Below are positions 54-18,736 of a stretch of 64,000 bases of DNA, in pieces. The notes under the pieces are model-generated. The model was not told the DNA's origin, did no database searches, and worked only from the letters and a program-made list of their open reading frames with translations. Numbering within the stretch: position 1 is the first letter of the stretch; each line of letters begins with the position of its first letter. Made by a program: the position numbers and the translations under genes. The DNA is from an uncultured delta proteobacterium (GTDB taxonomy: Bacteria > Desulfobacterota > Syntrophorhabdia > Syntrophorhabdales > WCHB1-27). The stretch is from NCBI GenBank assembly GCA_963835595.1, contig CAWIGL010000002.1, positions 2,534,459 through 2,598,458 of the forward strand, read 5' to 3'.

Positions 54-2723
54 ATGGGCGACATAAAAAGGATGTTCGATCCCCGAAGCATTGCGCTGAT
101 AGGCGCCAGCGATAAGGAGCGCTCCGCAGGGAGGATCATCCTCGAAAACCTTTTGCTTTCGAAGGAAAGGAAGATCTTCGCGGTAAATCCCGAGAGAAAA
201 AAGCTGTTCAATGTAGTCGAGAGTTATCCGAGCATTTCGCGGGTGCCCTGGCCGGTGGACCTCGCCGTAATAGCGACGCCTGCCCAGACCGTGCCTCCCC
301 TTGTCGAAGAATGCGGCAAGGCTGGGGTCGAGGCGTTGATTATCGTTTCTGCGGGCTTCAAAGAGGTAGGCGCGGAGGGAGAGGGGCTTGAGAGGCGGGT
401 GGCGGAGCTTCAAAAGCAGTACAAGATGCGGCTCCTCGGCCCCAATTGCCTGGGGTACATCAGGCCCCAGCTCGACCTGAACACGACCCCCGTCGAGGCC
501 ATGCCCGTCACAGGGAATATCGCCTTCATCTCGCAGAGCGGCGCCTTCGGGAGGGCGCTGCTCCATTGGGGCATCAGCGCCCGTGTGGGTTTCAGCATGT
601 TCGTTTCCCTTGGGTCGATGATCGACGTCGATTTCGGCGAGATGATCGATTTTCTCGGCTACGACAGCCACACGAGAAGTGTCATGATCTACATGGAGGA
701 AAGCATAGGCGACGTGAAGAGGTTCATGAGCGCTGCCCGAGGCTTTGCCCGCAACAAGCCTATCGTTTTGCTCCGGCCGCCCCGCCTCGGCGAGGGCGGA
801 ACCCCTGCCCGGACCCATACGGGACAGATGGCCGCAAGCGACCGCGTGTGTGACGCAGTGCTCAAAAGGGTCGGCGTCGTGCGCGTGAAGTCTACAGCCG
901 ACCTGTTCAATACTGCCGCTGTCCTTTATTCCAGACGCTTGCCGAAAGGCCCCAGGGTAGCAATCATCGCTAACGCCTTCGGCATTGCCTCGATGGCCGG
1001 CCATACCCTGCTGGAGCTCGGCGGCAGGCTTGCAGGACTCTCGGAGGAGACGCTGGCTGCCCTGGATTCCATCATGCCCCCTTACTGGAAGAAGGGCAAC
1101 CCCGTGGACATCTTGAGAGACGCAGATGCGGAGCGTTATACGAAGGCCATCAAGATCTGCCTGCACGACGCGGAGGTGGACGGGATATTGGTCATCTTTG
1201 CCCCGGAAGACACGGTCGGGCCCGAAGAGCTGGCCTCTGCCGTAGCGATGACGGCTAAGGAGGCCGCGAAGCCCGTTATCGCGTCATGGATGGGCAGCAG
1301 AGACATGGGGGGCGCGAGGGAGGTCTTCCTTGAGAGCAACGTGCCGATGTACGACTCACCCGAAGAAGCCGTAAGGACCTATCTTTATATGTACAACTAC
1401 GAGCGAAACCTGGAGCTGCTCTATGAGACGCCTGCCGACCTTCCCGTGGACCAGGCGCCGCCGAAGAACACCCTGAAGGCGCTGATAAAGAGGGTGGCGG
1501 GCACGGGCAGGCTCGTCCTTACCGAGGAAGAGGCGAAGCGGTTTCTCAGCAGCTACGGCATACCCGTGAACAGGGCCTACCCGGTGCAGAGCGTAGGGCA
1601 GGCGGTAAACGTGGCAGGAGCGATCGGGTATCCCCTGGTGCTCAAGGCTGCCTCGACGGATATCGCCTGCAAGAGCGAGGCGGGGTGCACCATCACAGGC
1701 ATCAGCTCGGAGACGGAGCTGAAGGAAGGGTGCGAGAAGCTTACAAAAAGGATCGAGCAGCTTTACCCCGGCGTAAAGACAGCGGGCTTCACCGTTCAAA
1801 AGATGATGGAAAAAATAGATTTCGAGATCATTTTGGGGGCGAAGAAAGACGAGGATTTCGGGTCTGTCATCCTCTTTGGTATGGGCGGCGCGGACGTGGA
1901 GATCTTCAGCGACTTTTCCATCGGCCTGCCTCCCCTGAACCAGACGCTCGGCAGGAGGCTGATGGAGGAGACGAGGCTGTATCGGCTGATTCAGGGCCGC
2001 AGGGGGAAGCCCCAGGCAGACCTGAAGCAGCTTGAGCAGATCATCGTCAGTTTTTCGAACCTTATCGTCGATTTCCCTGAAATCCTGGAGATGGACATCA
2101 ACCCCATCGCCGTTTGCGACGGCGAGGCCTGTGCACTCGATGCGAAGATCGTGATAGACAAGAATTGCCTCAACCATAGGGCCCGTTATCCGCACCTGGT
2201 CCTTACCCCCTATCCCACCAAGTATATTACGGACTGGACCCTTGCAGACGGTACCCCCGTCCTTCTGCGGCCCATAAGGCCGGAGGATGAGCCGCTGGAG
2301 CACGAGATGCTGACAAGCCTGTCGAAGGAGACGCTGCGCCAGCGGTTCTTTCAGGTCATAAAGCACATCAGCCATGAGATGCATATAAGGTTCTGCAACA
2401 TAGATTACGACAGGGAAATGGCGATTGTGGCCGAGATCAGGCAAGACGGGAAGCGCAGGATTATAGGCATAGGCAGGCTCATCGTGGAGCCGGATGCGAA
2501 GAAAGGGGAGTTCGCCGTAGTGGTCCACGATGACTTTCACGGCAAGGGCCTTGGATACAAGCTGGCCGATATGGTGATCGGAATAGCCCAGGAGAAAGGG
2601 CTTGAGGAGTGTTACGCCTTTATCCAGTCCGACAACAGGAAGATGCTCGGTTTATGCGGAAAGCTTGGATGCAGCATGGAGAACCTGCCGGACGGCATCA
2701 CCAGGGTAAGTCTTCTCGCCTGA
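54..2723 (+). CDS. Pat/PatZ-type bifunctional protein: NDP-forming acyl-CoA synthetase-like domains fused to a C-terminal GNAT acyltransferase domain (889 aa)
   Basis: N-terminal CoA-binding Rossmann region (MFDPRSIALIGASDKERSAGRII), succinyl-CoA-synthetase-like and ATP-grasp regions with SHTG-like His motif (ARTHTGQMA), C-terminal GNAT core (IGIGRLIV...HDDFHGKGLGYKL). Length and order match Pat-type protein lysine acetyltransferases. Confidence 0.85.
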   Translation: MGDIKRMFDPRSIALIGASDKERSAGRIILENLLLSKERKIFAVNPERKKLFNVVESYPSISRVPWPVDLAVIATPAQTVPPLVEECGKAGVEALIIVSAGFKEVGAEGEGLERRVAELQKQYKMRLLGPNCLGYIRPQLDLNTTPVEAMPVTGNIAFISQSGAFGRALLHWGISARVGFSMFVSLGSMIDVDFGEMIDFLGYDSHTRSVMIYMEESIGDVKRFMSAARGFARNKPIVLLRPPRLGEGGTPARTHTGQMAASDRVCDAVLKRVGVVRVKSTADLFNTAAVLYSRRLPKGPRVAIIANAFGIASMAGHTLLELGGRLAGLSEETLAALDSIMPPYWKKGNPVDILRDADAERYTKAIKICLHDAEVDGILVIFAPEDTVGPEELASAVAMTAKEAAKPVIASWMGSRDMGGAREVFLESNVPMYDSPEEAVRTYLYMYNYERNLELLYETPADLPVDQAPPKNTLKALIKRVAGTGRLVLTEEEAKRFLSSYGIPVNRAYPVQSVGQAVNVAGAIGYPLVLKAASTDIACKSEAGCTITGISSETELKEGCEKLTKRIEQLYPGVKTAGFTVQKMMEKIDFEIILGAKKDEDFGSVILFGMGGADVEIFSDFSIGLPPLNQTLGRRLMEETRLYRLIQGRRGKPQADLKQLEQIIVSFSNLIVDFPEILEMDINPIAVCDGEACALDAKIVIDKNCLNHRARYPHLVLTPYPTKYITDWTLADGTPVLLRPIRPEDEPLEHEMLTSLSKETLRQRFFQVIKHISHEMHIRFCNIDYDREMAIVAEIRQDGKRRIIGIGRLIVEPDAKKGEFAVVVHDDFHGKGLGYKLADMVIGIAQEKGLEECYAFIQSDNRKMLGLCGKLGCSMENLPDGITRVSLLA

Positions 2724-3015
2724 GATTCCGGACAGGGCCGCACCGGCTTCAACGCCCGCCCTGACAAGCGATTCAATCTCGCCGGGCATCTTCCCGGGCT
2801 CGCAGTTGAGGATAATAGCGACGGCAAGGGGGAGAAATCATTGCCTCTGATGTATCTTCCTTCCTCCGGCGGATAATCGGGGTGGGGATCCACCTTGAAC
2901 GTGCAGCCCTCCTTCGGGAAGAGGATGGCCATCATCCCCTAAATGTTCGGGATAATGGCATCCATCGCGCAACACGCATCGGTTTGCTCAGTCATATTGC
3001 CTCCATTCAACATTG

Positions 3016-3041
3016 CCCTCGCGGATGCTCATCCGCGAGGG
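3016..3041. terminator. GC-rich hairpin (11-bp stem CCCTCGCGGAT / ATCCGCGAGGG) between convergent Pat1 and thioredoxin-like genes
   Basis: Perfect inverted repeat, followed on plus strand by GTGTTTCC; sits between two convergent stop codons. Confidence 0.35.
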
Positions 3042-3077
3042 TGTTTCCTTGCTCAACAACGGAAGGTGCGCAGCTCG

Positions 3078-4817: not shown

Positions 4818-4964
4818 AATCACCCGCCCGCAAGAAGACTTATTGGTTAATATACCAACAAACCAATAGTTTGTCAAGGGAATTTTTCACGAAGGATATG
4901 GTGGAGCCCGGTCGCACGGGAATCATTCTTGCAATATGCTGCGGAGAGAGTCTTGATCTCCGAC

Positions 4965-4995
4965 GGCCCGTAAAAACCCGCGCGGGCCTTTTATT
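4965..4995. terminator. Short GC hairpin (GGCCCG...CGGGCC, inner palindrome CCCGCGCGGG) with flanking T/A runs, just 3' of the sigma-54 activator gene
   Basis: Inverted repeat 4965-4988 followed by TTTTATT on plus strand; AAAA/TTTTT flanks when read on minus strand. Confidence 0.3.
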
Positions 4996-6616
4996 CCTGA
5001 CGCCGCCCGCCGTGCGATGCGCGGGCCGCCCCCTGCGCCGGGTCCATTCTCTTGCCGCGACCGAAGGGGATACCCAGCTTCTGCATCCTGTATCGAAGGG
5101 TGGCGGGGTTCATGCCGAGCACCGAGGCGGCCCCGTTCTTCCCCTCGATCTTCCCTCCGGTGATCTCCATCACGTGCCTGATATGGCGTGCCTCCACATC
5201 GTCCAGCCTGAGCTTTGCCAATTCCTCGGCCCCGTTGGCCCCGCCTTCTGCGGGGCGGGACCGGCCTTCCGTTGAGGCGGCCCCGTTCTCCTTATCGGCG
5301 GAGCCGGCTATGTCGTCGAAGGCCAGGAGCTTGCCGTCGCACTGTATCAGCGCCCGCTCCACCACGTTGGCCACCTCACGGACGTTACCGGGCCAGTCAT
5401 AGCCGATGAGGCGCTCGATGGCGCCTGCCGCCGGCGACGGGATGGAGTGGAAGCCGAGCTCCCGCGCCTTCCTCTCGATGAAATATTCGACCAGCGCCGG
5501 TATATCGGCCCTCCGCTCGCGCAGCGGCGGGATGCGGATAGGGTAGACCTTGAGGCGGTAGTAGAGGTCGTCCCTGAAGGCGCCTTCCGCGACGAGCTTC
5601 TCCAAGCTCCTGTGTGTAGCGGAGATAATCCTTATGTCCACCTTGATGGGCTGGGAGCCGCCCACGCGCTCGATCTCCTTTTCCTGGAGCACCCGCAGGA
5701 GCCGCACCTGCGCCGGGAGGGGCAGCTCCCCCACCTCGTCGAGGAAAATGGTCCCTTTGTCGGCCCGCTCGAAGCGTCCCCTCCTGTCCGTGAGCGCGCC
5801 CGTAAAGGCCCCTTTTTCATGGCCGAAAAGCTCGCTGTCGATGAGCGATTCGGGGATGGCGCCGCAGTTGACGGTTATCATCGGCCCGGCGCTCCTGGGG
5901 GAAAGGTTATGGATGGCGTTTGCTATGATCTCCTTGCCGCTGCCCGTCTCGCCTACAAGGAGGACCGGGCTCGACAACGGCGCTACCCTGTATACCTGCT
6001 CCATCACGTTTTTAAGGCCGAAATTCGTCCCTACGATCTGTGCCCCCGTGTTCCTCCGCAGCTCGTTATGGAGATACCTGTTGTCGTCGGCCAGCTTCTC
6101 TTTCAGCTTCAGAAGCTCCAGGTACTGGCGGCTGTTGGCCAGCGCGATCCCCACCGGCTCGTTGACGAGGGACCACAGCTCGGCGTGCTCCTCCGTATAT
6201 CTCCCCTTTCCGGTCGCCCGTACGATGAGCGAGCCGATGAATTTGCTCTGGATGATGAGGCGAGCCACTATTACTGAAGACTCGGGCCATTTATATTGCA
6301 AGCCGACCTCTTTTATTATAGGGTCCTGGAAGTAGTCGTTTTTCATCCGCACCCTGCGGAACTGCTGGACGTTATCGAGCTCGTTCCTCACGAAAATGGG
6401 CATGGGCACGCCGTCGGAGCCCGTGGAAAAGCCCTTCTCGTCCGCCCGCGCGAAGATCTCCAGCACCCCTGTTGCCTGGTTATAGACGGTCAGGATCAGC
6501 TCGTCGGCAGGCATTACGTCCCGGATAAAGAGAAGGCAGCGCCAAAGAGCCTCGCCTATATTGAGGCTCCCGCAAATGCGAAAGATGAACTCGCGGAAAA
6601 AGTCGTTCTTGTTCAT
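4991..6616 (-). CDS. Sigma-54-dependent transcriptional activator (N-terminal GAF sensor, AAA+ sigma-54 interaction domain with GAFTGA, C-terminal Fis-type HTH), 541 aa
   Basis: GETGSGKE Walker A, GAFTGA, RERRADIP, C-terminal ...ASVLGMNPATLRYRMQKLGI. Confidence 0.85.
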   Translation of the reverse strand: MNKNDFFREFIFRICGSLNIGEALWRCLLFIRDVMPADELILTVYNQATGVLEIFARADEKGFSTGSDGVPMPIFVRNELDNVQQFRRVRMKNDYFQDPIIKEVGLQYKWPESSVIVARLIIQSKFIGSLIVRATGKGRYTEEHAELWSLVNEPVGIALANSRQYLELLKLKEKLADDNRYLHNELRRNTGAQIVGTNFGLKNVMEQVYRVAPLSSPVLLVGETGSGKEIIANAIHNLSPRSAGPMITVNCGAIPESLIDSELFGHEKGAFTGALTDRRGRFERADKGTIFLDEVGELPLPAQVRLLRVLQEKEIERVGGSQPIKVDIRIISATHRSLEKLVAEGAFRDDLYYRLKVYPIRIPPLRERRADIPALVEYFIERKARELGFHSIPSPAAGAIERLIGYDWPGNVREVANVVERALIQCDGKLLAFDDIAGSADKENGAASTEGRSRPAEGGANGAEELAKLRLDDVEARHIRHVMEITGGKIEGKNGAASVLGMNPATLRYRMQKLGIPFGRGKRMDPAQGAARASHGGRRQE

Positions 6617-6823: not shown

Positions 6824-6839
6824 TCTGGCACGTTTTATG
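6824..6839 (+). promoter_or_regulatory. Sigma-54 (-24/-12) promoter candidate CTGGCACGTTTTATGC
   Basis: TGGCACG-N4-ATGC versus consensus TGGCACG-N4-TTGCW (one mismatch), correct GG/GC spacing, faces the ABM-like ORF and Pat2-hdr-mvh genes. Confidence 0.45.
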
Positions 6840-6853
6840 CTTACTATTCACCG

Positions 6854-7138
6854 ATGCTGTGGATGGAAATGATCCGTCTGAGAACGACGAAGTCTCAAGT
6901 GGAGGCAGTCGCCCGCCTGATCCTTGACAATGTCAGGCAGGCGGCCGGCGAATCGGGCCTCCTTCGGGTCCATATGTACCACAGTGCGAAATATCGGGCA
7001 GACCTGGCGCTCAGTCTTATGTGGGAGACCAATGCGATGCAAAACGAAGGGAGCAGGACCGGTCTGAGCATAAGCGAGGCGCTCAAGAATTTCGGCCTTG
7101 TCGAGCACTCGATATGGATGGAGAAGGAGGCGACGTGA
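6854..7138 (+). CDS. Small ABM-like (dimeric alpha+beta barrel, antibiotic-biosynthesis-monooxygenase-like) protein, about 90 aa; start uncertain (alternatives at 6863 and 6869)
   Basis: Pattern ...GESGLLRVHMYHS...ADLALSLMWETNA...FGLVEHSIW resembles the ABM fold signature (..GCLRYELHRD...FVLYEVWES..); no strong SD. Confidence 0.35.
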   Translation: MLWMEMIRLRTTKSQVEAVARLILDNVRQAAGESGLLRVHMYHSAKYRADLALSLMWETNAMQNEGSRTGLSISEALKNFGLVEHSIWMEKEAT

Positions 7139-10616: not shown

Positions 10617-11494
10617 AGTATCTCTATTATCCAGGCTGTTCCCTGAAGAGCACCGGCAAGCCTTACGAGGAATCGCTGAAGGCGGTCTTCTCCGCGCTCA
10701 ACGTCCCCCTCGAAGAGCTTCGGGACTGGAATTGCTGCGGCGCCACTGCCTACATGGCCGTAGACGAGGTGAAGTCCTTCGCCCTCTCCGCGCGCAACCT
10801 GGCCCTTGCTGAGAAGCAGGGCGAGCCGGCGGAAAACGGCCATGTCCAGCTCGTCGCCCCATGTTCCGCCTGCTATGCCCTCCACCTGAAGACCCAGCAC
10901 TACCTTGACGAGAAGGAGGACATAAGGAAGAAGGTCGAGCGGGGGCTGAAAGAGGCGTCTCTCACCTATGAGGGAAGGGTCGATGTGCGCCATCCCCTCG
11001 ACGTGCTGGTGAACGACATCGGGACCGAAAAGATAAAAGAGGCGGTAAAATCGCCCCTCGGAAACAAGGTGGCGTGCTACTACGGCTGCCAGATCGTCAG
11101 GCCGTATGCGACGTTCGACAACCAGGCAAGCCCGACCAGCCTCGATAAGCTGATGCAGGCCATAGGGGCCACGCCCGTAGAATGGGCCATGAAGACGCGC
11201 TGCTGCGGCGGCACGCTCGTCGGCACGATCAGGGAGGTCGGCTTCCGTCTCAACTATCTCATCCTCAAGGAGGCGGAGAGGAAGGGGGCCGATACCCTGG
11301 CCACTACCTGCCCCTTGTGCCAGTTCGGTCTGGAATGTTTTCAGCCCGACGTGAACGCCAGCTGGCAGGCGAGCTTCCATACCCCTGTCGTCTACTTTAC
11401 GCAGTTGTTGGGGCTGGCCCTCGGCATCCCGGAGAAAAAGCTAGGTATGCAACGGCTCTTCGTGCCGTACAAGAAGGCTCAAATAGGAGGTTAG
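10613..11494 (+). CDS. hdrB: Heterodisulfide reductase subunit B-like (two CCG cysteine-rich domains)
   Basis: NCCGATAY...CYYGCQ and TRCCGGT...CPLCQF motifs; ATGA start/stop overlap with hdrC. Confidence 0.85.
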   Translation: MKYLYYPGCSLKSTGKPYEESLKAVFSALNVPLEELRDWNCCGATAYMAVDEVKSFALSARNLALAEKQGEPAENGHVQLVAPCSACYALHLKTQHYLDEKEDIRKKVERGLKEASLTYEGRVDVRHPLDVLVNDIGTEKIKEAVKSPLGNKVACYYGCQIVRPYATFDNQASPTSLDKLMQAIGATPVEWAMKTRCCGGTLVGTIREVGFRLNYLILKEAERKGADTLATTCPLCQFGLECFQPDVNASWQASFHTPVVYFTQLLGLALGIPEKKLGMQRLFVPYKKAQIGG

Positions 11495-11497
11495 CGA

Positions 11498-13486
11498 ATG
11501 GCAGCGAACGGACTACCAAAAGTAGGGGTCTACCTATGCGACTGCGGCACGAACATCGCCGCCACAGTCGACGTGCCGGCAGTGGTGGAATTTGCTTCCA
11601 CCCTCCCCGGCGTAGTAGTCGCCCGGGAATATAAATACATCTGCTCGGAGCCGGGGCAGCAGTTGATCCAGCAGGACATCAAGGAAAAGAACCTTGAGAG
11701 GGTCGTTGTCGCTTCCTGCTCGCCAAGGATGCACGAGCCGACATTCCAGGCGGCCGTGGCGAAGGCGGGCCTTAACCCCTTCTATTTCGCTATGGTCAAC
11801 ATCAGGGAGCACGTCTCGTGGGTCGTCAAAGACAAGGACCTGGCCACCGCCAAGGCGAAGAGGCTCCTTCGGGCCGCGGTGGGAAGGGTCGTCCTCCAGG
11901 AAGAGCTTTTCTCCCGGACGGACCCGGTCACCCCGGCCGCGATGGTGGTGGGCGGAGGCATCGCCGGCATCCAGTCGGCGCTGACGATCGCCGACGCGGG
12001 CTACAAGATCTACCTCGTCGAGCGCAACCCCTCGATCGGCGGCCATATGGCCCAGCTCGACAAAACGTTCCCGACGCTAGACTGTAGCACCTGAATCCTC
12101 GGCCCCAAGATGATGGATGCCGGTCGGCATCCGAACATCACCCTGCTGACGAATAGCGAAGTGACGAATGTCTCGGGCTACGTGGGTAATTACAAGGTAA
12201 GCGTAAAGAAGAAGCCGCGCTATATCAAGGAGGAGCTTTGTGTGGGCTGCCTCCAGTGCATAGACGGCTGCACCTATAAAGAGGCGAAGTTCGCCGACGA
12301 GTTCCAGATGGGCCTCGGCAAGCGCAAGCCCATCTACCTGCCCTTCCCCCAGGCGACCCCCCAGGTCGTGCTCATCGACCCGGACCGCTGCATCCAGTTG
12401 AAGACGGGGAAATGCAAAAAGACCTGTGCGGAGGCCTGCGACAGGAAGGCCATCGACTTCGACCAGAAAGAAGAGACCATCGAGGTCGATGTGGGCGCCA
12501 TTGTCGTCTCGACGGGCTTCGAGACCTTCGACGCGGCGAGGCTCCCGCAGTACGGCTACGGCGTTTATCCGAACGTCTATACGGGCCTCGAAGTCGAGAG
12601 GCTTACGAGCGCTTCCGGGCCTACCGGCGGCGAAGTGGTCCTGCGGGACGGCAGCCACCCGAAGAGCGTCGGCATCGTCCACTGCGTCGGCTCCCGCGAC
12701 GAGAAGACGAACCGCTGGTGCTCAAGGGTCTGCTGTATGTATTCGTTGAAGCTGGCCCACATGGTTAAGGACCACACGGGCGCCGACGTCTATAATTTCT
12801 ACATCGATATGCGCACCCCCGGAAAGAGCTACGAGGAGTTCTACGACAAGCTCCTCTCCGAGGGCGTCAATTTCGTCCGTGGCCGCGTAGCCGAGGTTAC
12901 CGACTGGGCGATAAGGCCGGAGGAGGAAGGGAAGCTCGTGATCCGGGTGGAAGATACCCTCGTCGGCGTGGTGAGAAGGATTCCCGTCGATATGGTCATC
13001 CTTTCCACGGGTCTCCAGCCCCAGGCGGACGCCGGTGCAGTGGCGTCGATGTTCGGCATAAGCCGGACCGCGGACGGCTTCTTCGCGGAGGCCCATCCGA
13101 AGCTGCGGCCGGTCGAGACGAATACCGACGGGGTCTATCTTGCGGGCTGCGCCCAGGGGCCCAGGGACGTGCCCGATACGGTCGCCCATGCAGGGGCGGC
13201 CGCGTCGATGGTCATCGGTCTTCTCAACAGGGGACAGGTGACCATATCGCCGACAGTGGCCGCGGTAGATGAGAAGCTATGCTCCGCCTGCAAGACGTGC
13301 CTCTCCGTCTGCCCGTACCAGGCGATCAGCTTCGACGCCGGGAAGAAGGTGGCGGGCGTCAACGAAGCCCTGTGCAAGGGGTGCGGCACCTGCGTGGCTG
13401 CCTGCCCTGCGGGGGCAATCACGGGCCGCCATTTCTCGGACGAGCAGATCGTTGCCCAGATAGAAGGGCTTCTCAAAACTGCTTAA
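11498..13486 (+). CDS. hdrA: Heterodisulfide reductase subunit A-like flavoprotein with an in-frame TGA (12092-12094) read as selenocysteine; 662 aa
   Basis: FAD motif VVGGGIAGIQSAL; the two ORF-track pieces (11498-12094, 12110-13486) share one frame, split only by TGA inside FPTLDCST-U-ILGPKMM (Cys in non-Sec HdrA: DCSMCILAPKM); several 4Fe-4S Cys clusters downstream. Confidence 0.8.
12108..12139 (+). other. SECIS-like stem-loop 13 nt downstream of the hdrA UGA (GAUG[AUG]GAUGCC-GGUC-GGCAUC[CGAA]CAUC)
   Basis: Two-tier hairpin, apical loop GGUC, at the spacing of bacterial SECIS elements. Confidence 0.4.
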
Positions 13487-13495
13487 AGGAGCACG

Positions 13496-13930
13496 ATGAT
13501 GAACTTTGAACCAAAAATAATCGCCTTCCTCTGCAATTGGTGCACTTACACCGCAGCCGATGCGGCAGGCGTCGCCCGTATGGAGCAGCCGGCGAACGTG
13601 GACGTAATCCGCGTCATGTGCACGGGCAGGATAGAGCCCATGTTCGTCATGAAGGCTTTTGCCGAAGGGGCGGACGGGGTTATCGTTTCCGGCTGCCATC
13701 CGCCGGGAGACTGCCATTACACGAACGGCAACTTCAAGACCTTCCGCCGTATGCCTCTTTTGGCGACGCTCCTTTCCCAGTTCGGCATCGAGAAGGGGAG
13801 GTTCCACTGGGGCTGGATATCCGGCGCGGAGGCGCCCAAGTGGGCGGAACTTGCCCGGAGCTTCACCGAACAGGTACGCGGCCTGGGGCCACTCGACTGG
13901 AAGGCCCAGCTCGCGAGCAAGGAGGATTAG
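13496..13930 (+). CDS. mvhD: MvhD/FlpD-like iron-sulfur protein (methyl-viologen-reducing hydrogenase delta subunit)
   Basis: MMNFEPKIIAFLCNWCTYTAAD...VMCTGRIEP...VSGCHPPGDCHY, characteristic MvhD Cys pattern. Confidence 0.8.
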   Translation: MMNFEPKIIAFLCNWCTYTAADAAGVARMEQPANVDVIRVMCTGRIEPMFVMKAFAEGADGVIVSGCHPPGDCHYTNGNFKTFRRMPLLATLLSQFGIEKGRFHWGWISGAEAPKWAELARSFTEQVRGLGPLDWKAQLASKED

Positions 13931-13931
13931 C

Positions 13932-14891
13932 ATGGCTGATAAACTGAAGCTCGCCCTCTACTGGGCTGCATCGTGCGGAGGCTGCGAGATCGCCATCGTC
14001 GAGCTGCGCGAGAAGATACTTATCGTCGACCAGGTGGCCGACATTCTCTTCTGGCCGGTCGCTGTAGACACAAAGTATAAGGACGTGGAGGCCATGCCGG
14101 ACGGCCACATCGACGTCTGCCTGTTCAACGGGGCGATCCGCACGAGCGAGAACGAGCACTTGGCCCACCTCCTGCGGAAGAAATCAAAGGTCCTCGTCGC
14201 CTTCGGCTCCTGCGCGAACGAAGGCTGCATGCCCGGCCTGGCGAACCTCTACGACCGGGAGTCGATTTTCAGTTACGCCTATCTGGAATCCCCGTCGGTG
14301 GACAACCCGAACAAGGTCGTCCCCCAGACGCAGAACAAGATGCCCGAAGGGGAGATCGAGATACCCAAGTTCTACCAGACGGTCAAGACGCTTTCTCAGG
14401 TCGTCGATGTAGACTACCACGTACCCGGCTGTCCGCCGCAGGCCCCGCAGATATGGGCGGTGATAGAGGCGATAGTCCAGGGCAAGCTCCCCGCGAAAGG
14501 GAGCGTGGTCGGCGCGAACGACAAGACCGTCTGCGACGAGTGCAAGCACGAGCGCAAGGAGAAGGCGATCAAGAAGTTTTACCGCACCTACGAGATCATC
14601 CCCGAGTCCACGCAGTGCCTCTTCGACCAGGGCCTGATTTGTGCCGGACCGGCTACGAGGGGCGGCTGCGGCGCACTCTGCACGAAGGTCGATGTGCCCT
14701 GCCGGGGCTGCTACGGACCCCCGCCCCATATCGTAGACCAGGGGGCTGCCCTGATGTCTGCCGCGGCGTCCGTGGTGGATGCGGATACGGAAGAGGAGGC
14801 GGCCCGCATCGTGGGCGAGATCGCCGACCCTATAGGGACCTTCTACCGCTTCGGCTTGCCGGCGTCGCTCCTGCACCGGAAGAAGATGTAA
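13932..14891 (+). CDS. mvhG: [NiFe] hydrogenase small subunit (F420-non-reducing / Mvh type)
   Basis: MADKLKLALYWAASCGGCEIA... small-subunit N-terminal Cys motif; real start is internal to ORF-track 13659-14891, preceded by AAGGAGGA. Confidence 0.8.
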   Translation: MADKLKLALYWAASCGGCEIAIVELREKILIVDQVADILFWPVAVDTKYKDVEAMPDGHIDVCLFNGAIRTSENEHLAHLLRKKSKVLVAFGSCANEGCMPGLANLYDRESIFSYAYLESPSVDNPNKVVPQTQNKMPEGEIEIPKFYQTVKTLSQVVDVDYHVPGCPPQAPQIWAVIEAIVQGKLPAKGSVVGANDKTVCDECKHERKEKAIKKFYRTYEIIPESTQCLFDQGLICAGPATRGGCGALCTKVDVPCRGCYGPPPHIVDQGAALMSAAASVVDADTEEEAARIVGEIADPIGTFYRFGLPASLLHRKKM

Positions 14892-14931
14892 TGCGGACGC
14901 AGGGGCCCAAGAAAGTTATAAGGAGAGCGCT

Positions 14932-16395
14932 ATGAAGAAGATAAGCATTGATCCCGTGACCCGGCTCGAAGGACACGGAAGGATAGACCTCTTCCTGGAC
15001 GACCAGGGAGAGGTGGCCAATGCCTATATGGTCATCCCCGAGCTTAGGGGGTTCGAGAAATTCTCCCAGGGGAGGTGCGTCGAGGAATTGACGGACATTA
15101 CCCCCCGCATCTGCGGCGTCTGCCCGGAGGCGCACCATCTCGCCGCCACCAAGGCCACGGACGAGGTTTTCCACGTCGATCCGCCGCCGGCGGCAAAGAA
15201 GCTGAGGGAGCTTTTCTACTCCGCCTTTTATGTAGCGGACCACACGGTCCACTTCTATATCCTGGGCGGGCCCGACTTCGTGATGGGCCCCGACGCCCCC
15301 GTTGCGGAGCGCAACATCCTGGGGGTGATCCATAAGGTAGGGGTGGAGATCGGCTCGAAGGTGATCGAGGCCAGGGGCAAGGCGATGGACGTCATCGGCA
15401 TGTTGGGGGGCAGGAAGATCCATCCCACCTTCGGGATCGCCGGGGGCGTGATGAAGTCCCTCACCGAAGAGGAGAGGAAGCAGGTGGAGCAGACGGCTGC
15501 CGACTCGATAGAGTTCGGCCTGTTCAGCCTGAAGCTCTTCAAGGACATCGTCCTCGCCAACAAGGGCTATCTCGACCTTATAATGTCGCCCATCTTCACC
15601 ATGCCGACGTACTACATGGGCATGGTGGACGACAAGAACAAGGTCAATTTCTACGACGGGAAGATCAGGGTGGTCGATCCCGAAGGGAAGGAGTTCGTAA
15701 AGTACAGCCCCAAGGATTACCTGGAGCACGTGGCGGAGCGCGTCGAGCCCTGGACGTATCTCAAGTTCCCGTATCTGAAGAAGGTGGGCTGGAAGGGCCT
15801 TACCCTGGGCAAGGATTCGGGGGTGTACCAGGCGACGCCGCTCTCCCGCCTCAACGCGTCGGACGGCATGGCTACGCCTAGGGCGCAGGAGGCCTATGAG
15901 GAGATGTTCAAGACGTTCGGCCATAAGCCCGTTCACAATCTCCTGGCTACGCACTGGGCGCGCCTGATCGAGCTTCTCTATGCGGCTGAGCGCCTCCAGG
16001 AGCTCTCCAGGGACCCCGGCATCACAGACCCGAAGGTCCGCAACATACCGACGGAGAAGCCGACGGAAGGCGTAGGCATCGTAGAGGCGCCCAGAGGCAC
16101 CCTTACCCATCACTATATCACCGATGAGAAGGGCATCGTAACGAAGGCGAACCTTATAGTCGGCACGACAAACAACTACGCGCCCATCTCCATCGCCGTG
16201 AAGCAGGCGGCGCAGGGGCTTATCAAGAAGGGCGTCGAGGTGACGGAGGGCATCCTCAACCGCGTGGAAATGGCCTTCCGCCTCTACGACCCGTGCTTCG
16301 GCTGCGCCACGCATACGCTCCCAGGCAGGATGCCGCTCGTCATCAATATCATGGACCCGAATGGAGAGGTAGTGCGGCAGATAAGAAGGGATTAA
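14932..16395 (+). CDS. mvhA: [NiFe] hydrogenase large subunit (Mvh type), Cys rather than Sec at the active site
   Basis: N-terminal RICGVCPEAHH (CxxC) and C-terminal DPCFGCATH (DPCxxCxxH) Ni-Fe ligand motifs; 487 aa. Confidence 0.85.
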   Translation: MKKISIDPVTRLEGHGRIDLFLDDQGEVANAYMVIPELRGFEKFSQGRCVEELTDITPRICGVCPEAHHLAATKATDEVFHVDPPPAAKKLRELFYSAFYVADHTVHFYILGGPDFVMGPDAPVAERNILGVIHKVGVEIGSKVIEARGKAMDVIGMLGGRKIHPTFGIAGGVMKSLTEEERKQVEQTAADSIEFGLFSLKLFKDIVLANKGYLDLIMSPIFTMPTYYMGMVDDKNKVNFYDGKIRVVDPEGKEFVKYSPKDYLEHVAERVEPWTYLKFPYLKKVGWKGLTLGKDSGVYQATPLSRLNASDGMATPRAQEAYEEMFKTFGHKPVHNLLATHWARLIELLYAAERLQELSRDPGITDPKVRNIPTEKPTEGVGIVEAPRGTLTHHYITDEKGIVTKANLIVGTTNNYAPISIAVKQAAQGLIKKGVEVTEGILNRVEMAFRLYDPCFGCATHTLPGRMPLVINIMDPNGEVVRQIRRD

Positions 16396-16407
16396 GTAGG
16401 ATGTTCG

Positions 16408-16846: not shown

Positions 16847-18736
16847 CTACGCCTTGAACCGCATGTCGAGGAGATATTCCGTCTGAAGGGCCTTGCGTTT
16901 GAGGTCGAAGTCCATTTTCTCGAAAAGGCGGAGGGCCGGCTCGTTCTCCTTTGCGATTTTCACGGTGAAGCCGAGCAGTCCGCGCCTGCGGGCGATCCGC
17001 TTGAGATACCAGAGTATCTCGGTGCCGACGCCCAGGTTCCGGCGGCTTTCGCTTACGAGCACCGCGACCTCGGCGGTGTGCCGGTCGTCGCTCATCACGT
17101 ATTTGCCCAGGCCGACAAACGTCTCTCCGCCGTCGCCTTTCAGGAGCGCCAGTATCGCCATCTCACGGGTATAATCGATAAGCCCCGCATCGCCCGGCCC
17201 GGCCGCGGCGTGCAAGAAACTGCGGCAGGCCTCCCCGCCCGTCCCTACCGGCAGGGTGGCCAGGAAGTCCCTGAGCATCGACTCATCGGACGTCTTGACC
17301 GGTCTTAAGAAGACCTCCAGGCCGGTTTTGGTCTTGCGCCTGGCTTCGAGGTGCTCCGGGTAGAGTCCCTTCTTGCCGGGGGCGTAAGCCTGGCTCTCGT
17401 AGACGAGGTTTTGCCGCTTCGCCTCTTCGAGGAGCGCAGGCTGAAAGGCCGGGTGCGCTATGGCGATGAGGGACATGGCCCTTTCCCGGAGGCTCCTCCC
17501 GTGGATGTAGGCTATGCCGTGCTCGGTGATGACGTAGTGTATATCGCCCCGCGTCAGGGTGACGCCCGCCCCTTCTTTCAGGAAAGGCACTATCCTCGAT
17601 ACTGTCCCCTTGCGGGCCGTCGATGGGAGGACCAGGATGCTCTTCCCCTGGGGCGCCATGACCGCGCCCCGCATGAAATCGGCCTGCCCCCCGATGCCGC
17701 TGTAGAACGTCCTGCCGAGGGATTCGGACGTAGCCTGGCCCGTCAGGTCGATCTCGAGGGCGGTATTGATGGCGGTCATGTTGTTTATCCGCGAGATGAC
17801 CGATGGGCTGTTCGTATAGTCTATCGTCTTGAACTCGAAGGTAGGGTTATCGTTTATGTACGCATAGGTCGCTTTCTTGCCCATGCAGAACGCTGCGACG
17901 GTCTTGCCCGTGTCGATGCTCTTCCGCTTGTTGTTGACGACCCCCTTTCGCATCAGGTCCACGATGCCGTCCGGCAGCAGCTCCGTGTGGACCCCGAGGT
18001 CGTGCTTCGTGTTGAGGTACGATATGACCGCCGAAGGTATGCTTCCGTAGCCGACCTGTATCGTATCCCCGTCCTCTACGACGTTGCTCACGTATTTGCC
18101 CATGCGCCTGACGGTTTCGTCGGGAAGGTCCGTCTCGTACTCAAGGAGCGGCTCGTCGTGGGGAAGCAGGAAGTCTACCTGGCCGATATGGACGAAGCTG
18201 TCGCCGTGGACGCGCGGCATGTTCGAGTTGACCTGGGCGATCACGAGCGAGGCGACCTGCACGGCCTCCTTCACTATATCGACGCTGATGCCCAGGCTCA
18301 TGTACCCGTGCTCGTCCGGCGGGGACGTCTGTATGAGGGCGACGTCGATGGGTATCGTGTGGCGTCTGAGCAGGGCGGGCACCTGCGAGAGGAATATGGG
18401 GATATAGTTGGCCTCGCCCTTGTTGACGGCCTCCCGCGTATCCTTGCCGATGAAGAAGGAGCTGCGGCGGAAGTTGCTGCCGAACTTGTTCGAGCTGTAA
18501 GGATCGACGCCGAGCGTCCAGATGTGGAGCGCCTCCGCGTAAGAGAACGTCGTGGGGTGCGACTCGACGTAACGTATCAGCGCCTTCACGAGGTATTGCG
18601 GCTCTCCGCAGGCCGTGCCGATGAAGATCCTGTCGCCCGCCTGGACCTGGCTGAGTATCTGCTCTTCGGCGACAAACTTCTCCGGATAGGTCTTCATCAT
18701 CTTCCGCATAACCGAGCCTTCCTGCCGGCGTTGCAC
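16847..18736 (-). CDS. Acetyl-CoA hydrolase/transferase-family (Cat1/AbfT-like) domain fused to a C-terminal Pat-type GNAT domain (629 aa)
   Basis: First ~470 aa resemble 4-hydroxybutyrate/acetate CoA-transferases; last ~150 aa (IDYTREMAILAL...AEVAVLVSESRRNLGVGTEIL) align with the Pat1/Pat2 GNAT domains (IDYDREMAIVAE...GEFAVVVHDDFHGKGLG). Confidence 0.8.
   Translation of the reverse strand: MQRRQEGSVMRKMMKTYPEKFVAEEQILSQVQAGDRIFIGTACGEPQYLVKALIRYVESHPTTFSYAEALHIWTLGVDPYSSNKFGSNFRRSSFFIGKDTREAVNKGEANYIPIFLSQVPALLRRHTIPIDVALIQTSPPDEHGYMSLGISVDIVKEAVQVASLVIAQVNSNMPRVHGDSFVHIGQVDFLLPHDEPLLEYETDLPDETVRRMGKYVSNVVEDGDTIQVGYGSIPSAVISYLNTKHDLGVHTELLPDGIVDLMRKGVVNNKRKSIDTGKTVAAFCMGKKATYAYINDNPTFEFKTIDYTNSPSVISRINNMTAINTALEIDLTGQATSESLGRTFYSGIGGQADFMRGAVMAPQGKSILVLPSTARKGTVSRIVPFLKEGAGVTLTRGDIHYVITEHGIAYIHGRSLRERAMSLIAIAHPAFQPALLEEAKRQNLVYESQAYAPGKKGLYPEHLEARRKTKTGLEVFLRPVKTSDESMLRDFLATLPVGTGGEACRSFLHAAAGPGDAGLIDYTREMAILALLKGDGGETFVGLGKYVMSDDRHTAEVAVLVSESRRNLGVGTEILWYLKRIARRRGLLGFTVKIAKENEPALRLFEKMDFDLKRKALQTEYLLDMRFKA

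What the first reader, a model, noticed from the sequence alone, without database searches (positions are those of the whole stretch)
54..18736. Three paralogous Pat-type GNAT acyltransferase fusion proteins within 19 kb
Two large acyl-CoA-synthetase-like-to-GNAT fusions (54-2723, 7173-9908) and one acetyl-CoA hydrolase/transferase-to-GNAT fusion (16847-18736) carry mutually alignable C-terminal GNAT domains (IDYDREMAIVAE / IDYTREMAILAL; GEFAVVVHDDFHGKGLG / AEVAVLVSESRRNLGVG). In characterised bacteria the first architecture is the protein lysine acetyltransferase Pat, which controls acyl-CoA synthetases. Three such proteins with different acyl-CoA-handling N-terminal modules bracket the energy-conserving Hdr/Mvh genes. 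That suggests either a multi-input lysine-acylation network on central metabolism or substrate channelling from CoA-thioester enzymes to the acyltransferase. Unlike classical Pat, the SHTG-type phosphohistidine motif is retained in both ACS-like domains, so they may be catalytic.
Basis: partly seen in the sequence, partly recalled or inferred. Interest (0 to 1): 0.65.

Follow-up and report, generated by a model that had tools for sequence, protein, structure and literature searches.

The report
Three acyl-CoA-module/GNAT fusion acyltransferases
Within 19 kb an anaerobic bacterium encodes two relatives of the protein-acetylating enzyme Pat and one uncharacterised CoA-transferase fused to a Pat-type acetyltransferase domain; the Pat relatives look like ordinary regulators, but the third belongs to a widespread family missing from current classifications.

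Summary
Observation confirmed. The ORFs at 54-2723 (P1) and 7173-9908 (P2) are 51% identical Pat-like proteins: an NDP-forming acyl-CoA-synthetase-like (ACD-like) module plus a GNAT. The ORF at 16847-18709/18736, minus strand (P3), is a 4-hydroxybutyrate-CoA-transferase-type module fused to a Pat-type GNAT.

Interpretation partly supported.
- P1 and P2 keep the swinging-loop histidine that E. coli and Salmonella Pat lack.
- Both have lost the second, ATP-grasp catalytic histidine (Cys in P1, Arg in P2).
- They keep only 53-55% of positions invariant in genuine ADP-forming synthetases (PatZ: 48%). Full synthetase activity is therefore unlikely, and they read best as acyl-CoA-sensing lysine acyltransferases.
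- P2 sits in a sigma54-type operon (small ORF-P2-hdrCBA-mvhDGA). This operon is conserved in orthologs down to about 68% identity and not beyond, so the Hdr/Mvh link is real but lineage-specific.

P3 belongs to a large uncharacterised family: at least 599 species genomes, bacteria and archaea, 54-61% identity in the best 80. Its CoA-transferase catalytic residues are intact. The family's recurrent neighbour is a canonical ADP-forming acyl-CoA synthetase (29 of 67 loci), not Hdr. In the window's lineage the P3 GNAT has eroded (63% of family-conserved positions, against 94% in the CoA-transferase part). This architecture is absent from the type I-V scheme of bacterial GNAT acetyltransferases.

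The parts
54..2723 (+). P1: Pat-like protein (ACD-like module plus C-terminal GNAT), 889 aa. Swinging-loop His255 (codon 816-818) is kept; the ATP-grasp His is replaced by Cys539 (codon 1668-1670).
   Evidence: Pfam. Best PDB match is E. coli PatZ 9it0, E 1.4e-144. His positions. 53% of ACD-invariant positions retained.
3014..3043 (+). Strong terminator-like hairpin (13-bp stem, T-rich tail) about 290 nt after P1.
4991..6616 (-). Sigma54-dependent transcriptional activator (EBP), divergent from the P2 operon. Its N-terminal sensor region is unassigned (only a weak GAF hint).
   Evidence: Pfam: Sigma54_activat 4.5e-70, HTH_8; weak GAF. Conserved next to P2 orthologs.
6826..6840 (+). Sigma54-type promoter motif TGGCACGTTTTATGC (-24/-12), 14 bp before the small ORF.
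   Evidence: The motif TGGCAC-N5-WTGC lies in the same position in L002, L003 and L006.
6854..7138 (+). Conserved small ORF (about 90 aa), first gene of the operon. Function unknown; weak ABM/Dabb-like hint.
   Evidence: 65-78% identical in three relatives. ABM E 0.0054, below the Pfam cut-off.
7173..9908 (+). P2: Pat-like protein (ACD-like module plus GNAT), 911 aa. Swinging-loop His277 is kept; the ATP-grasp His is replaced by Arg561. A Lys-rich insertion lies in the CoA-binding domain (aa 42-70, window 7296-7382).
   Evidence: 55% of ACD-invariant positions retained.
9966..16395 (+). hdrC-hdrB-hdrA(Sec)-mvhD-mvhG-mvhA, starting 57 bp after P2 with no terminator-like site in the gap. Probably co-transcribed with P2.
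   Evidence: Pfam. In-frame TGA in hdrA. Terminator scan. Synteny.
16847..18709 (-). P3: 4-hydroxybutyrate-CoA-transferase-type module (aa 1-445) fused to a Pat-type GNAT (aa about 465-620). An alternative GTG start lies at 18736. Key residues: QVGYG loop 18061-18044, catalytic Glu243 in HTE 17989-17975, GIGGQADF 17698-17675, GNAT Glu547 17074-17057, motif A RNLGVG 17044-17024, divergent segment 17254-17180.
   Evidence: Pfam. PDB 9vag E 5e-125, 3eh7, 3gk7. Family alignment. Coordinates. Domain-wise conservation.
18772..21090 (+). 772-aa protein of unknown function (weak TPR hints), divergent from P3. It accompanies P3 in the closest relatives.
   Evidence: Homolog next to P3 in L002, L006, L089 and L092.

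Best explanation
The three genes encode acyl-CoA-responsive protein N-acyltransferases of the Pat type.

P1 and P2 are diverged paralogs of the type I bacterial lysine acetyltransferase (Pat/PatZ). In that family a large ACD-like N-terminal module binds acyl-CoA, holds the oligomer together and allosterically opens the C-terminal GNAT, which transfers the acyl group to lysines of target enzymes. By analogy the targets are most likely acyl-CoA synthetases. In P1 and P2 the ACD-like module is a sensor, not a working synthetase: one of its two catalytic histidines is kept and the other is lost.

P2 is made together with the electron-bifurcating HdrABC-MvhADG complex. They share one sigma54-dependent operon controlled by the adjacent activator, so in this lineage P2's activity is timed with hydrogen and redox metabolism.

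P3 is a different solution to the same design. A catalytically intact family-I CoA-transferase takes the place of the ACD-like module in front of a Pat-type GNAT. In most organisms that carry this fusion it is co-encoded with a genuine ADP-forming acyl-CoA synthetase, which points to control of, or cooperation with, the acetate/acyl-CoA/ATP node.

Shown: architectures, residue states, operon structure and synteny. Inferred: acyltransferase activity, the targets, and the sensor role.
For: Architecture and closest structures:
- P1 matches E. coli PatZ over its full length (E 1.4e-144). P2 has the same Pfam architecture as P1 and is 51% identical to it over the full length.
- The Pat-type GNAT signature (LRP..xxDE, IDYxREMA, catalytic Glu, motif A) aligns in all three proteins and in PatZ.
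- The best PDB match of the P3 GNAT is PatZ 710-865.

Sensor rather than enzyme:
- The ATP-grasp His, which is conserved in every solved ACD and in PatZ, is Cys in P1 and Arg in P2.
- Only 53-55% of ACD-invariant positions are kept, against 48% in PatZ and 58-70% in Pat-likes with both His.
- P1's swinging loop carries Pro and Arg substitutions, and its G308/G309/G312 glycine positions are lost.
- In PatZ the regulatory domain binds AcCoA and drives GNAT activation (PMC12184503).

Operon:
- The sigma54 motif lies at 6826-6840 and is conserved in three relatives.
- The P2-hdrC gap is 57 bp with no terminator-like site.
- EBP-small ORF-P2-hdrCBA-mvhDGA recurs in L002, L006, L089, L092, L093 and L137, and partly in L095.

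P3:
- E 5e-125 to a solved 4HB-CoA transferase.
- Glu243 (HTE), the QxGhG loop and GGQxDF are invariant in 21 family members. They correspond to E238, Gly215-Ile219 and Gln337 of 3GK7 (PMC11659651).
- The gene immediately downstream of a P3 homolog is an NDP-forming ACS in 21 of 61 loci by Pfam; no other family occurs more than twice. By tblastn the figure is 29 of 67 loci.
- All 21 of these partners carry both catalytic His.
- AMP-forming Acs lies nearby in 10 of 80 loci and directly downstream in L008.
Against: - No biochemical data exist for any of the three proteins or for their close relatives.
- The swinging-loop His is conserved in the P1-like clade even though the second His is absent there (Tyr). 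This suggests the ACD-like module does more than bind a ligand.
- Succinyl-CoA synthetase (my knowledge) and DddX (PMC8163506) phosphorylate the loop His directly from ATP. Loss of the second His therefore does not strictly exclude catalysis.
- P3's GNAT has lost 37% of family-conserved positions in this lineage, including the Pat-type YxRFxS...HE segment. It may have a new acceptor or be decaying.
- In the window P3 is not next to a canonical ACD.
- No deacylase gene was recognised among the window ORFs scanned.
Confidence: 0.55

Rival explanations
1. P1 and/or P2 are truly bifunctional. The N-terminal module is a working ADP-forming acyl-CoA synthetase that makes or consumes the acyl-CoA, and the GNAT regulates it or uses its product.
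For: - The swinging-loop His sits in a recognisable (S/T)HTG motif in both.
- 113 of 120 close homologs, and 59 of the GNAT-bearing cluster representatives, keep both catalytic His.
- NCBI names relatives 'bifunctional acetate--CoA ligase family protein/GNAT'.
- P2 orthologs at 67-79% identity still have both His.
- An operon with a hydrogenase would fit co-expression of the two terminal steps of syntrophic oxidation, acetate + ATP and H2 (inference).
Against: - The second His of the four-step ACD mechanism (His71beta / H535; PMC4500148, PMC11494057) is Cys in P1 and Arg in P2.
- About 45% of ACD-invariant positions are replaced, similar to the inactive PatZ.
- P1's loop and glycine positions are degraded.
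Confidence: 0.15
2. P3 is primarily a metabolic CoA-transferase. Together with an ADP-forming synthetase it converts acyl-CoA esters to free acids plus ATP (acyl-CoA + acetate -> acid + acetyl-CoA -> acetate + ATP). The GNAT is only an accessory self-regulating domain or modifies a small molecule.
For: - The CoA-transferase catalytic residues are intact and invariant.
- 94% of family-conserved CoA-transferase positions are kept, against 63% in the GNAT part.
- A canonical ACD with both His lies directly downstream in 29 of 67 loci.
- Acetate-channel (Gpr1/Fun34/YaaH) genes lie upstream in two loci.
Against: - Outside the window's lineage the GNAT is as conserved as the transferase (98-100% of conserved positions), so it is under strong selection as part of the protein.
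- It is specifically Pat-like.
- In the window no canonical ACD is adjacent.
Confidence: 0.3
3. Donor channelling. The CoA-transferase module of P3 makes a non-acetyl acyl-CoA from a free acid, and the fused GNAT uses it at once to put that acyl group on proteins. This would be a one-protein version of the E. coli YdiF (CoA-transferase) -> YiaC (GNAT) lactylation pair.
For: - The fusion of an intact transferase to an intact GNAT is kept at 54-61% identity in the best 80 loci, which span many phyla and both domains.
- A two-protein precedent exists (PMC9636275).
Against: There is no structural or biochemical evidence. The AF2 model was too poor (pLDDT 62) to judge geometry. Adjacency to ACD and Acs fits regulation of those enzymes equally well.
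Confidence: 0.15
4. The three proteins form a dedicated lysine-acylation network that targets the Hdr/Mvh complex they flank.
For: - The P2-hdr-mvh operon is conserved in the lineage.
- P3 lies convergent to it in the window and in L002, L006, L089 and L092.
- P3 is still linked to P2 in a rearranged contig (L091), and a P1-like gene lies about 10 kb from P2 in L003 and L090.
Against: - The linkage disappears in P2 homologs of 65% identity or less: none of 72 has a syntenic Hdr/Mvh block, and only L126 carries distant (29-48% id) Hdr-like genes upstream.
- Hdr or Mvh genes lie within 10 kb in only 3 of 80 P3-family loci.
- Co-transcription does not identify a substrate. Known Pat targets are acyl-CoA synthetases (PMC3195501).
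Confidence: 0.1

Closest known systems
Type I GNAT protein lysine acetyltransferase Pat / PatZ (YfiQ) of Salmonella enterica and E. coli (PDB 9it0, 9isq)
   Same: P1 and P2 have the same order of modules: CoA-binding, CoA-ligase flavodoxin-like, ATP-grasp, then C-terminal GNAT. P1 aligns with PatZ over its full length (E 1.4e-144). They share the GNAT signature LRPIxPEDEP, IDYDREMA and (E)FAV, with 39-41% GNAT identity.
   Different: PatZ has Leu245 where P1 and P2 keep the loop His. PatZ keeps the ATP-grasp His (H531) that P1 and P2 have lost, so the pattern is reversed (PMC12184503). P2 carries a Lys-rich insertion in the CoA-binding domain. P2 lies in an hdr/mvh operon, whereas patZ in E. 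coli lies between tapT and pssA.
ADP-forming acyl-CoA synthetases (ACD): Ca. Korarchaeum ACD1 (4xyl), P. furiosus ACS, Nitrosopumilus Nmar_0206 (8wzu)
   Same: The five-subdomain fold and the swinging-loop SHTG motif.
   Different: P1 and P2 add a GNAT, lack the second catalytic His (H535 in Nmar_0206, His71beta in P. furiosus), and have replaced about 45% of the invariant positions.
4-hydroxybutyrate CoA-transferase AbfT / Cat1-type family I CoA-transferases (3GK7, 3EH7, 9VAG)
   Same: P3 residues 1-445 align end to end (E 5e-125). The catalytic Glu (HTE), the QxGhG loop and GGQxDF are conserved.
   Different: P3 carries a C-terminal linker plus Pat-type GNAT of about 175 aa, which the matched solved transferases (434-476 aa) lack. 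Its substrates are unknown.
E. coli YdiF (CoA-transferase) + YiaC (GNAT) lysine lactylation pair
   Same: A CoA-transferase supplies the acyl-CoA that a GNAT puts on lysines (PMC9636275). P3 contains both activities in principle.
   Different: These are separate proteins from different subfamilies, and there is no evidence that P3 works this way.
Type II GNAT acetyltransferase (Streptomyces lividans PatA: N-terminal GNAT, C-terminal ACD-like domain)
   Same: The typical gene pair [CoA-transferase-GNAT][ACD] places a Pat-type GNAT directly before an ACD, which is the same order as in type II enzymes (PMC8556138).
   Different: In the pair the ACD is a separate, catalytically complete protein. 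An evolutionary link is my speculation and was not tested.

Membership tests
Type I GNAT lysine acetyltransferase (Pat/PatZ) | [quoted passage not shown] | tested here: met
   P1 and P2: Pfam; P1 aligns with PatZ over its full length and P2 is 51% identical to P1 over the full length. P3 does not meet this, because a CoA-transferase module stands in that place.
Type I GNAT lysine acetyltransferase (Pat/PatZ) | GNAT motif A (Q/R-x-x-G-x-G/A) and the catalytic Glu of the Pat GNAT | tested here: met
   In the alignment with PatZ, P2 has QGKGLG, P3 has RNLGVG and P1 has HGKGLG (His at the first position; PatZ itself has K). The Glu of (G/A)E(F/V)AV aligns in all four.
Type I GNAT lysine acetyltransferase (Pat/PatZ) | Regulatory module described as inactive because the catalytic (swinging-loop) His is absent (PMC3195501, PMC8556138, PMC12184503) | tested here: not met
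   P1 His255 and P2 His277 are present where PatZ has Leu245. The same holds for 120 of the 123 aligned sequences (117 of the 120 close homologs), so this 'feature' describes the enterobacterial enzymes and not the family.
Type I GNAT lysine acetyltransferase (Pat/PatZ) | Acetylates the active-site Lys (PX4GK) of AMP-forming acyl-CoA synthetases | not testable with these tools
   This needs an enzyme assay. A candidate substrate with PRNSMGK exists at 53572-55170.
ADP-forming acyl-CoA synthetase (ACD) | Phosphohistidine on the swinging loop (His254alpha / H256) | tested here: met
   THTG in P1 and SHTG in P2.
ADP-forming acyl-CoA synthetase (ACD) | Second catalytic His in the ATP-grasp subdomain (His71beta / H535) | tested here: not met
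   P1 has DIACKSE and P2 has DVLRRSE, against D(I/V)xHKS(D/E) in 4xyl_B, 1wr2, 8wzu, 9y43, PatZ and 21 canonical ACDs.
ADP-forming acyl-CoA synthetase (ACD) | Retention of positions invariant among canonical ACDs | tested here: not met
   P1 78/146 (53%), P2 80/146 (55%), PatZ 70/146 (48%).
Family I (Cat1/AbfT-type) CoA-transferase | Active-site Glu forming the acyl-enzyme anhydride (E238 of 3GK7), the QxGhG loop and the GGQxDF motif | tested here: met
   P3 has Glu243 in HTE, Q218-V-G-Y-G222 and G340-G-Q-A-D-F. These are aligned with three solved 4HB-CoA transferases and are invariant in 21 family members. Residue roles are from PMC11659651.
Family I (Cat1/AbfT-type) CoA-transferase | CoA-transfer activity and substrate range | not testable with these tools
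   NCBIfam scores are far below the equivalog cut-off (butyryl-CoA:acetate CoA-transferase 276 bits against 675), so no substrate can be assigned.
HdrABC-MvhADG electron-bifurcating complex (context genes) | Gene set hdrC (Fer4), hdrB (CCG), hdrA (FAD, Fer4), mvhD (FlpD), mvhG (Oxidored_q6), mvhA (NiFe large subunit) | tested here: met
   Pfam. hdrA is read through an in-frame TGA.

The most novel reading that the evidence does not exclude
The CoA-transferase-GNAT fusion (the P3 family) is an undescribed sixth type of prokaryotic GNAT protein acyltransferase. Its 'regulatory' domain is an active CoA-transferase that senses or produces the acyl donor. With its conserved partner, a complete ADP-forming acyl-CoA synthetase, it forms a self-regulating acetate/acyl-CoA/ATP module that is widespread in anaerobic bacteria and archaea (Methanothrix, Thermoplasmatota, Dehalococcoidia, Nitrospirota and others). 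In the window's lineage this module has been rewired. The partner is replaced by Pat-like P2 inside a sigma54-controlled hdr-mvh operon, and the GNAT acceptor-binding region has been remodelled. A side reading: in P1-like and P2-like proteins the loop His, retained without the second His, serves as an acyl-CoA/phosphate-dependent phospho-switch for the GNAT.
Probability: 0.2. Interest if true: 0.75.

Novelty: new variant of a known kind. Interest (0 to 1): 0.5.

Why it matters
Reversible lysine acylation is the main known post-translational control of acyl-CoA synthetases, and its bacterial writers are classified into five GNAT types based on a few model organisms. Two points here go beyond that picture.

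First, a highly conserved CoA-transferase/Pat-GNAT fusion is present in at least 599 species-level genomes from many bacterial and archaeal phyla. It is usually paired with an ADP-forming acyl-CoA synthetase. It has no place in the classification, and my searches found no literature on it.

Second, the textbook statement that the synthetase-like domain of Pat lacks its catalytic histidine holds for enterobacteria but not for most environmental homologs. Those range from fully intact to half or wholly degenerate.

Both points are directly testable with recombinant proteins. They bear on how energy-limited anaerobes (syntrophs, acetoclastic methanogens) control the acetate/acetyl-CoA/ATP node. 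The specific idea that these enzymes regulate Hdr/Mvh is weakly supported.

Tried and rejected
- **AlphaFold2 of P3 (21-sequence alignment).** Mean pLDDT 62 and pTM 0.43, with much of the CoA-transferase part below 50. This is too poor to judge domain packing or channelling, so no fold search was run.
- **Rfam scan of the whole window.** It found only one tRNA and no riboswitch or leader near the three genes.
- **Exact-sequence look-up of the source contig for P2 (P0121).** No record. The organism could only be approximated from named relatives (Syntrophorhabdaceae).
- **Literature searches.** Searches for a CoA-transferase-GNAT fusion, for a characterised Pat-like protein that retains the catalytic His, and for GNATs in syntroph acyl-proteomes found nothing specific.
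- **Deep Hdr/Mvh association, rejected.** I considered that the association is a conserved property of either family. It is absent in P2 homologs of 65% identity or less, and Hdr or Mvh genes lie within 10 kb in only 3 of 80 P3-family loci.
- **Sequencing artefact in the P3 GNAT segment (aa 486-510), rejected.** The window does contain frameshift-type errors elsewhere. However, the same divergent segment occurs in four independent relatives of 73-93% identity.
- **Sensor domains of the sigma54 activator and the function of the small ORF.** Only sub-threshold hints were obtained: GAF E 0.075 and ABM E 0.005.


Full report
**1. The observation**

- Pfam gives P1 (54-2723) and P2 (7173-9908) the same architecture: CoA_binding_2, Succ_CoA_lig, Ligase_CoA_2, ATP-grasp_5 and a C-terminal GNAT.
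- P3 (16847-18736, minus strand) has the AcetylCoA_hydro N and C domains plus a C-terminal GNAT.
- NCBIfam agrees. For all three, the best GNAT-specific model is 'acetyltransferase Pat'.
- P1 and P2 are 51% identical over their whole length.
- The P1 and P3 GNAT regions align at 28% identity, E 2e-14.
- P3 most likely starts at ATG 18709. Sources-629 aa for its cluster members.

'Paralogous' holds strictly only for P1 and P2.

**2. Surroundings**

- P1 is followed by a strong terminator-like hairpin at 3014-3043.
- Next, on the minus strand, come an ArsP-type permease (3465-4412), an ArsR-type regulator (4491-4877) and a sigma54-dependent activator (4991-6616).
- A sigma54-type promoter motif, TGGCACGTTTTATGC, lies at 6826-6840. 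It sits 14 bp before a conserved small ORF at 6854-7138.
- P2 follows. Only 57 bp later, with no terminator-like site in between, come hdrC, hdrB, hdrA, mvhD, mvhG and mvhA.
- hdrA is read through an in-frame TGA at a conserved Cys position.
- P3 is convergent to this block. A 772-aa protein without clear domains lies divergent from P3.

**3. Are the ACD-like modules of P1 and P2 intact?**

The best solved relative of P1 is E. coli PatZ (9it0, E 1.4e-144), ahead of genuine ADP-forming synthetases. ADP-forming acetyl-CoA synthetases use two histidines:

- one on the swinging loop (His257alpha in P. furiosus, H254 in ACD1, H256 in Nmar_0206);
- one in the ATP-grasp part (His71beta, H535) (PMC4500148; PMC11494057).

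Salmonella Pat and E. coli PatZ lack the first. In PatZ it is Leu245 (PMC3195501; PMC12184503).

The second histidine tells a different story. It is present in every solved ACD, in PatZ (H531) and in 21 canonical ACDs. It is Cys539 in P1 (DIACKSE) and Arg561 in P2 (DVLRRSE).

As a wider measure, 146 positions are invariant in 21 canonical ACDs. Retention of these positions is:

| Protein | Retained |
|---|---|
| P1 | 53% |
| P2 | 55% |
| E. coli PatZ | 48% |
| Pat-like proteins with both histidines | 58-70% |

P1 has also lost the G308/G309/G312 glycine positions and carries Pro and Arg substitutions in the swinging loop. The modules are therefore about as degenerate as PatZ's regulatory domain. 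Retaining one histidine is not enough to call them catalytic.

One caveat applies. In DddX, and in succinyl-CoA synthetase (my knowledge), the loop His takes phosphate directly from ATP (PMC8163506). Loss of the second His is therefore strong evidence against catalysis but not absolute.

**4. How unusual is the retained histidine?**

It is not unusual.

- Among the 120 closest database homologs of P2, all carrying a GNAT, 113 keep both histidines.
- Among the 153 aligned sequences (150 representatives of 50%-identity clusters found with P1, plus P1, P2 and PatZ), 59 GNAT-bearing ones keep both. The rest show every combination of losses.
- In the P2 clade, orthologs of 67-79% identity still have the second His. 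Only the window's protein and its relatives of 83% identity or more have Arg.
- In the P1 clade (62-65% identical metagenome sequences), five of seven sequences keep the loop His in a conserved LSHTGQMA motif and have Tyr at the second position; the other two keep both His.

NCBI already names such proteins 'bifunctional acetate--CoA ligase family protein/GNAT family N-acetyltransferase'. The general statement in reviews that the type I regulatory domain lacks the catalytic His (PMC8556138) describes the enterobacterial enzymes. P1 and P2 are intermediate, half-degenerate members.

**5. Is the link to Hdr/Mvh meaningful?**

The arrangement activator / small ORF / P2 / hdrCBA / mvhDGA recurs in these contigs:

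- P2 orthologs of 85%, 83% and 68-69% identity (L002, L089, L092, L093, L137);
- L006, identified through its 80%-identical P3 ortholog;
- partly in L095 (78%).

Other observations on synteny:

- The sigma54 motif lies at the same place in L002, L003 and L006.
- The contigs L002, L006, L089 and L092 (P2 orthologs of 83-85% identity, P3 orthologs of 79-80%) also have P3 convergent after mvhA, followed by the unknown protein of about 720 aa.
- In the 78% relatives L003 and L090, P2 is followed instead by a convergent HdrA-like/HdrB/HdrC/MetF cluster. A gene 85% identical to the C-terminus of P1 lies about 10 kb away.
- In L091 a P3 homolog lies 3.7 kb upstream of P2.
- None of the 72 P2 homologs of 65% identity or less has the activator-P2-hdr/mvh arrangement; one (L126) carries distant (29-48% id) Hdr-like genes 3-8 kb upstream.
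- Hdr or Mvh genes lie within 10 kb in only 3 of 80 P3-family loci.

P2 is thus very probably co-transcribed and co-regulated with the bifurcating hydrogenase/heterodisulfide reductase, and P1, P2 and P3 tend to stay near each other. Both hold only within this lineage. That is evidence for shared regulation. It is not evidence that Hdr/Mvh are the substrates.

**6. What is P3?**

Its first 445 residues are a close relative of solved 4-hydroxybutyrate CoA-transferases (9vag E 5e-125; 3eh7, 2oas, 3gk7). The following are present, and invariant in an alignment of 21 family members with 75% mean column identity:

- the active-site Glu (Glu243 in HTE, equivalent to E238 of 3GK7);
- the QxGhG loop;
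- the GGQxDF motif (residue roles from PMC11659651).

The C-terminal part matches PatZ residues 710-865 better than any other solved protein.

The fusion is common. The 120 best of 8000 database hits all have both modules. The best 80 loci show 54-61% identity to P3, nearly all over close to its full length. Hosts include Syntrophorhabdaceae, Syntrophales, Nitrospirota, Dehalococcoidia, Thermotogota, Bipolaricaulota, Bacillota, Methanotrichaceae, Thermoplasmatota and one Synechocystis.

Sources name these proteins only 'GNAT family N-acetyltransferase' or 'acetyl-CoA hydrolase'. I found no paper on them. The PatZ structure paper's type I-V scheme has no such type.

**7. The conserved partner of the P3 family**

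- I took the gene immediately downstream of the P3 homolog in 61 loci and scanned them against Pfam. 21 are NDP-forming acyl-CoA synthetases, and no other family occurs more than twice.
- The upstream gene shows no recurrent family, apart from two acetate-channel (Gpr1/Fun34/YaaH) genes.
- By tblastn, 29 of 67 loci with enough downstream sequence have such a gene starting within 200 bp on the same strand. 36 of 80 have one somewhere in the locus, and 10 of 80 have an AMP-forming Acs nearby. In L008 the Acs is directly downstream.
- All 21 partners are about 708 aa, lack a GNAT and carry both catalytic histidines in canonical SHTGSLA and DI(L/I)HKSD motifs.

The family's recurrent context is therefore the acetate/acyl-CoA/ATP node. 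This fits two readings: a Pat-like regulator of acyl-CoA synthetases, or a metabolic CoA-transferase + synthetase pair. It does not fit a dedicated Hdr/Mvh modifier.

**8. P3 in this lineage is atypical**

- Typical P3-family GNATs are 33-37% identical to the P1/P2 GNATs. That is nearly as close as PatZ's GNAT (39-41%). They carry the Pat signature SLSxxSxYxRFMSxRxDMPHExLQ...IDYxKEM.
- The window's P3 and its relatives of 73% identity or more replace about 25 residues of this segment (aa 486-510). They are only 25-27% identical to P1/P2 and 39-45% identical to other family GNATs.
- Of positions at least 95% conserved in 116 family members, window P3 keeps 94% in the CoA-transferase part but only 63% in the linker + GNAT part. 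Typical members keep 98-100% in both.
- Motif A (RNLGVG) and the catalytic Glu remain.
- This lineage is also the one in which no canonical ACD was found in the sequence examined around P3. The GNAT has probably either changed acceptor or is under relaxed selection (inference).

**9. Most likely mechanism**

By homology with PatZ (PMC12184503), P1 and P2 are oligomeric enzymes. Acyl-CoA binding to the ACD-like module opens the GNAT, which then acylates lysines of target proteins. The most probable targets are acyl-CoA synthetases. One AMP-forming ligase with the PX4GK acceptor motif (PRNSMGK) is encoded in the window at 53572-55170.

P2's expression is tied to hdr/mvh by a sigma54 promoter and the neighbouring activator.

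P3 most likely uses an active CoA-transferase module in the role that the ACD-like module plays in Pat, or alongside it. Whether it senses, produces or channels the acyl donor cannot be decided here. The E. coli YdiF/YiaC pair is a two-protein precedent for the last option (PMC9636275).

The architectures, residue states and synteny are shown. The activities, targets and sensor role are inferred.

**10. Verdict**

- The claim that the synthetase-like domains may be catalytic is weakened.
- The Hdr/Mvh connection is genuine for P2 but lineage-restricted.
- P1 and P2 are new members of a known kind.
- The P3 family is a new variant of a known kind: annotated, widespread and uncharacterised, and missing from the current typology. 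It is the most interesting lead, more for the family at large than for this somewhat eroded copy.

Noticed in passing
window 11498-13486 (TGA at 12092-12094): hdrA is interrupted by an in-frame TGA at a conserved Cys position (DCST*ILGPK). A stable hairpin follows about 20 nt downstream (-22.5 kcal/mol, z -2.8). The same 198 + 458 aa split is called in relatives L002 and L006. This is very probably a selenocysteine-containing HdrA with a SECIS-like element.
   Followed up: partly
window 6826-7138; L002 9653-9965; L003 9570-9883; L006 21169-21481: A conserved sigma54-type promoter motif (TGGCAC-N5-WTGC) is followed by a conserved ORF of about 90 aa with unknown function (65-78% identity; weak ABM/Dabb-like hint only). 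It always lies directly upstream of P2 orthologs and next to a divergent sigma54 activator whose sensor domain is unassigned.
   Followed up: partly
window 7296-7382 (P2 aa 42-70): A Lys-rich insertion (FWVHAGANDGEPLKKVKKGTKPKPLVVSP) sits in the CoA-binding domain of P2. Similar insertions occur in its orthologs and in some more distant homologs, but not in P1 or PatZ. It may be a self-acylation or interaction loop; this is speculation.
   Followed up: partly
L010-L088 (e.g. L012 11863-13995, L020 11866-13995): Across many phyla the CoA-transferase-GNAT gene is followed, after about 20-30 bp, by a complete ADP-forming acyl-CoA synthetase of about 708 aa. This puts a Pat-type GNAT directly before an ACD, the same order as in type II (GNAT-ACD) acetyltransferases. 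It may hint at how those fusions arose.
   Followed up: partly
window 49074-50520: A UbiD-family decarboxylase gene is split into two overlapping ORFs: UbiD_N plus UbiD positions 3-167, then UbiD positions 163-204 plus UbiD_C. The break falls at a G-run (GAAGGGGCCCTTCGGCGAATGG, about 49858-49866), inside what would read EGPFGEW. It is a frameshift from a sequencing error or a pseudogene.
   Followed up: partly
window 59760-61374: A RACo-type (corrinoid activation ASKHA) gene is likewise split near 60307-60326: Raco_middle positions 1-56 in one ORF, and positions 68-162 plus the C-terminal domain in the next. This second frameshift in 64 kb suggests assembly errors.
   Followed up: partly
window 47070-55170: An aromatic or organic-acid degradation-type cluster: acyl-CoA dehydrogenase, GntR/FCD regulator, UbiD-like decarboxylase, TRAP transporter DctPQM, and an AMP-forming acyl-CoA ligase. 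The ligase's C-terminus carries the Pat acceptor motif PX4GK (PRNSMGK, aa 503-509), making it a candidate substrate of the Pat-like proteins.
   Followed up: partly
window 22002-29144: A giant 2380-aa protein with two GH94 supersandwich domains and a glucoamylase-like domain. It looks like a cyclic beta-1,2-glucan synthase or phosphorylase.
   Followed up: no
window 35581-36966 (-): A further, unrelated GNAT-fold protein (Acetyltransf_6 / FemAB-like) lies near polysaccharide-biosynthesis genes (epimerase, Glycos_transf_4, GNVR/tyrosine-kinase-like, TPR protein). It is not part of the Pat-type set.
   Followed up: no
window 18772-21090; L002 21373-end; L006 7574-9757: A protein of about 720-770 aa with only weak TPR hints accompanies P3, in divergent orientation, in the closest relatives (55% identity in L089 and L092). 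Function unknown.
   Followed up: no
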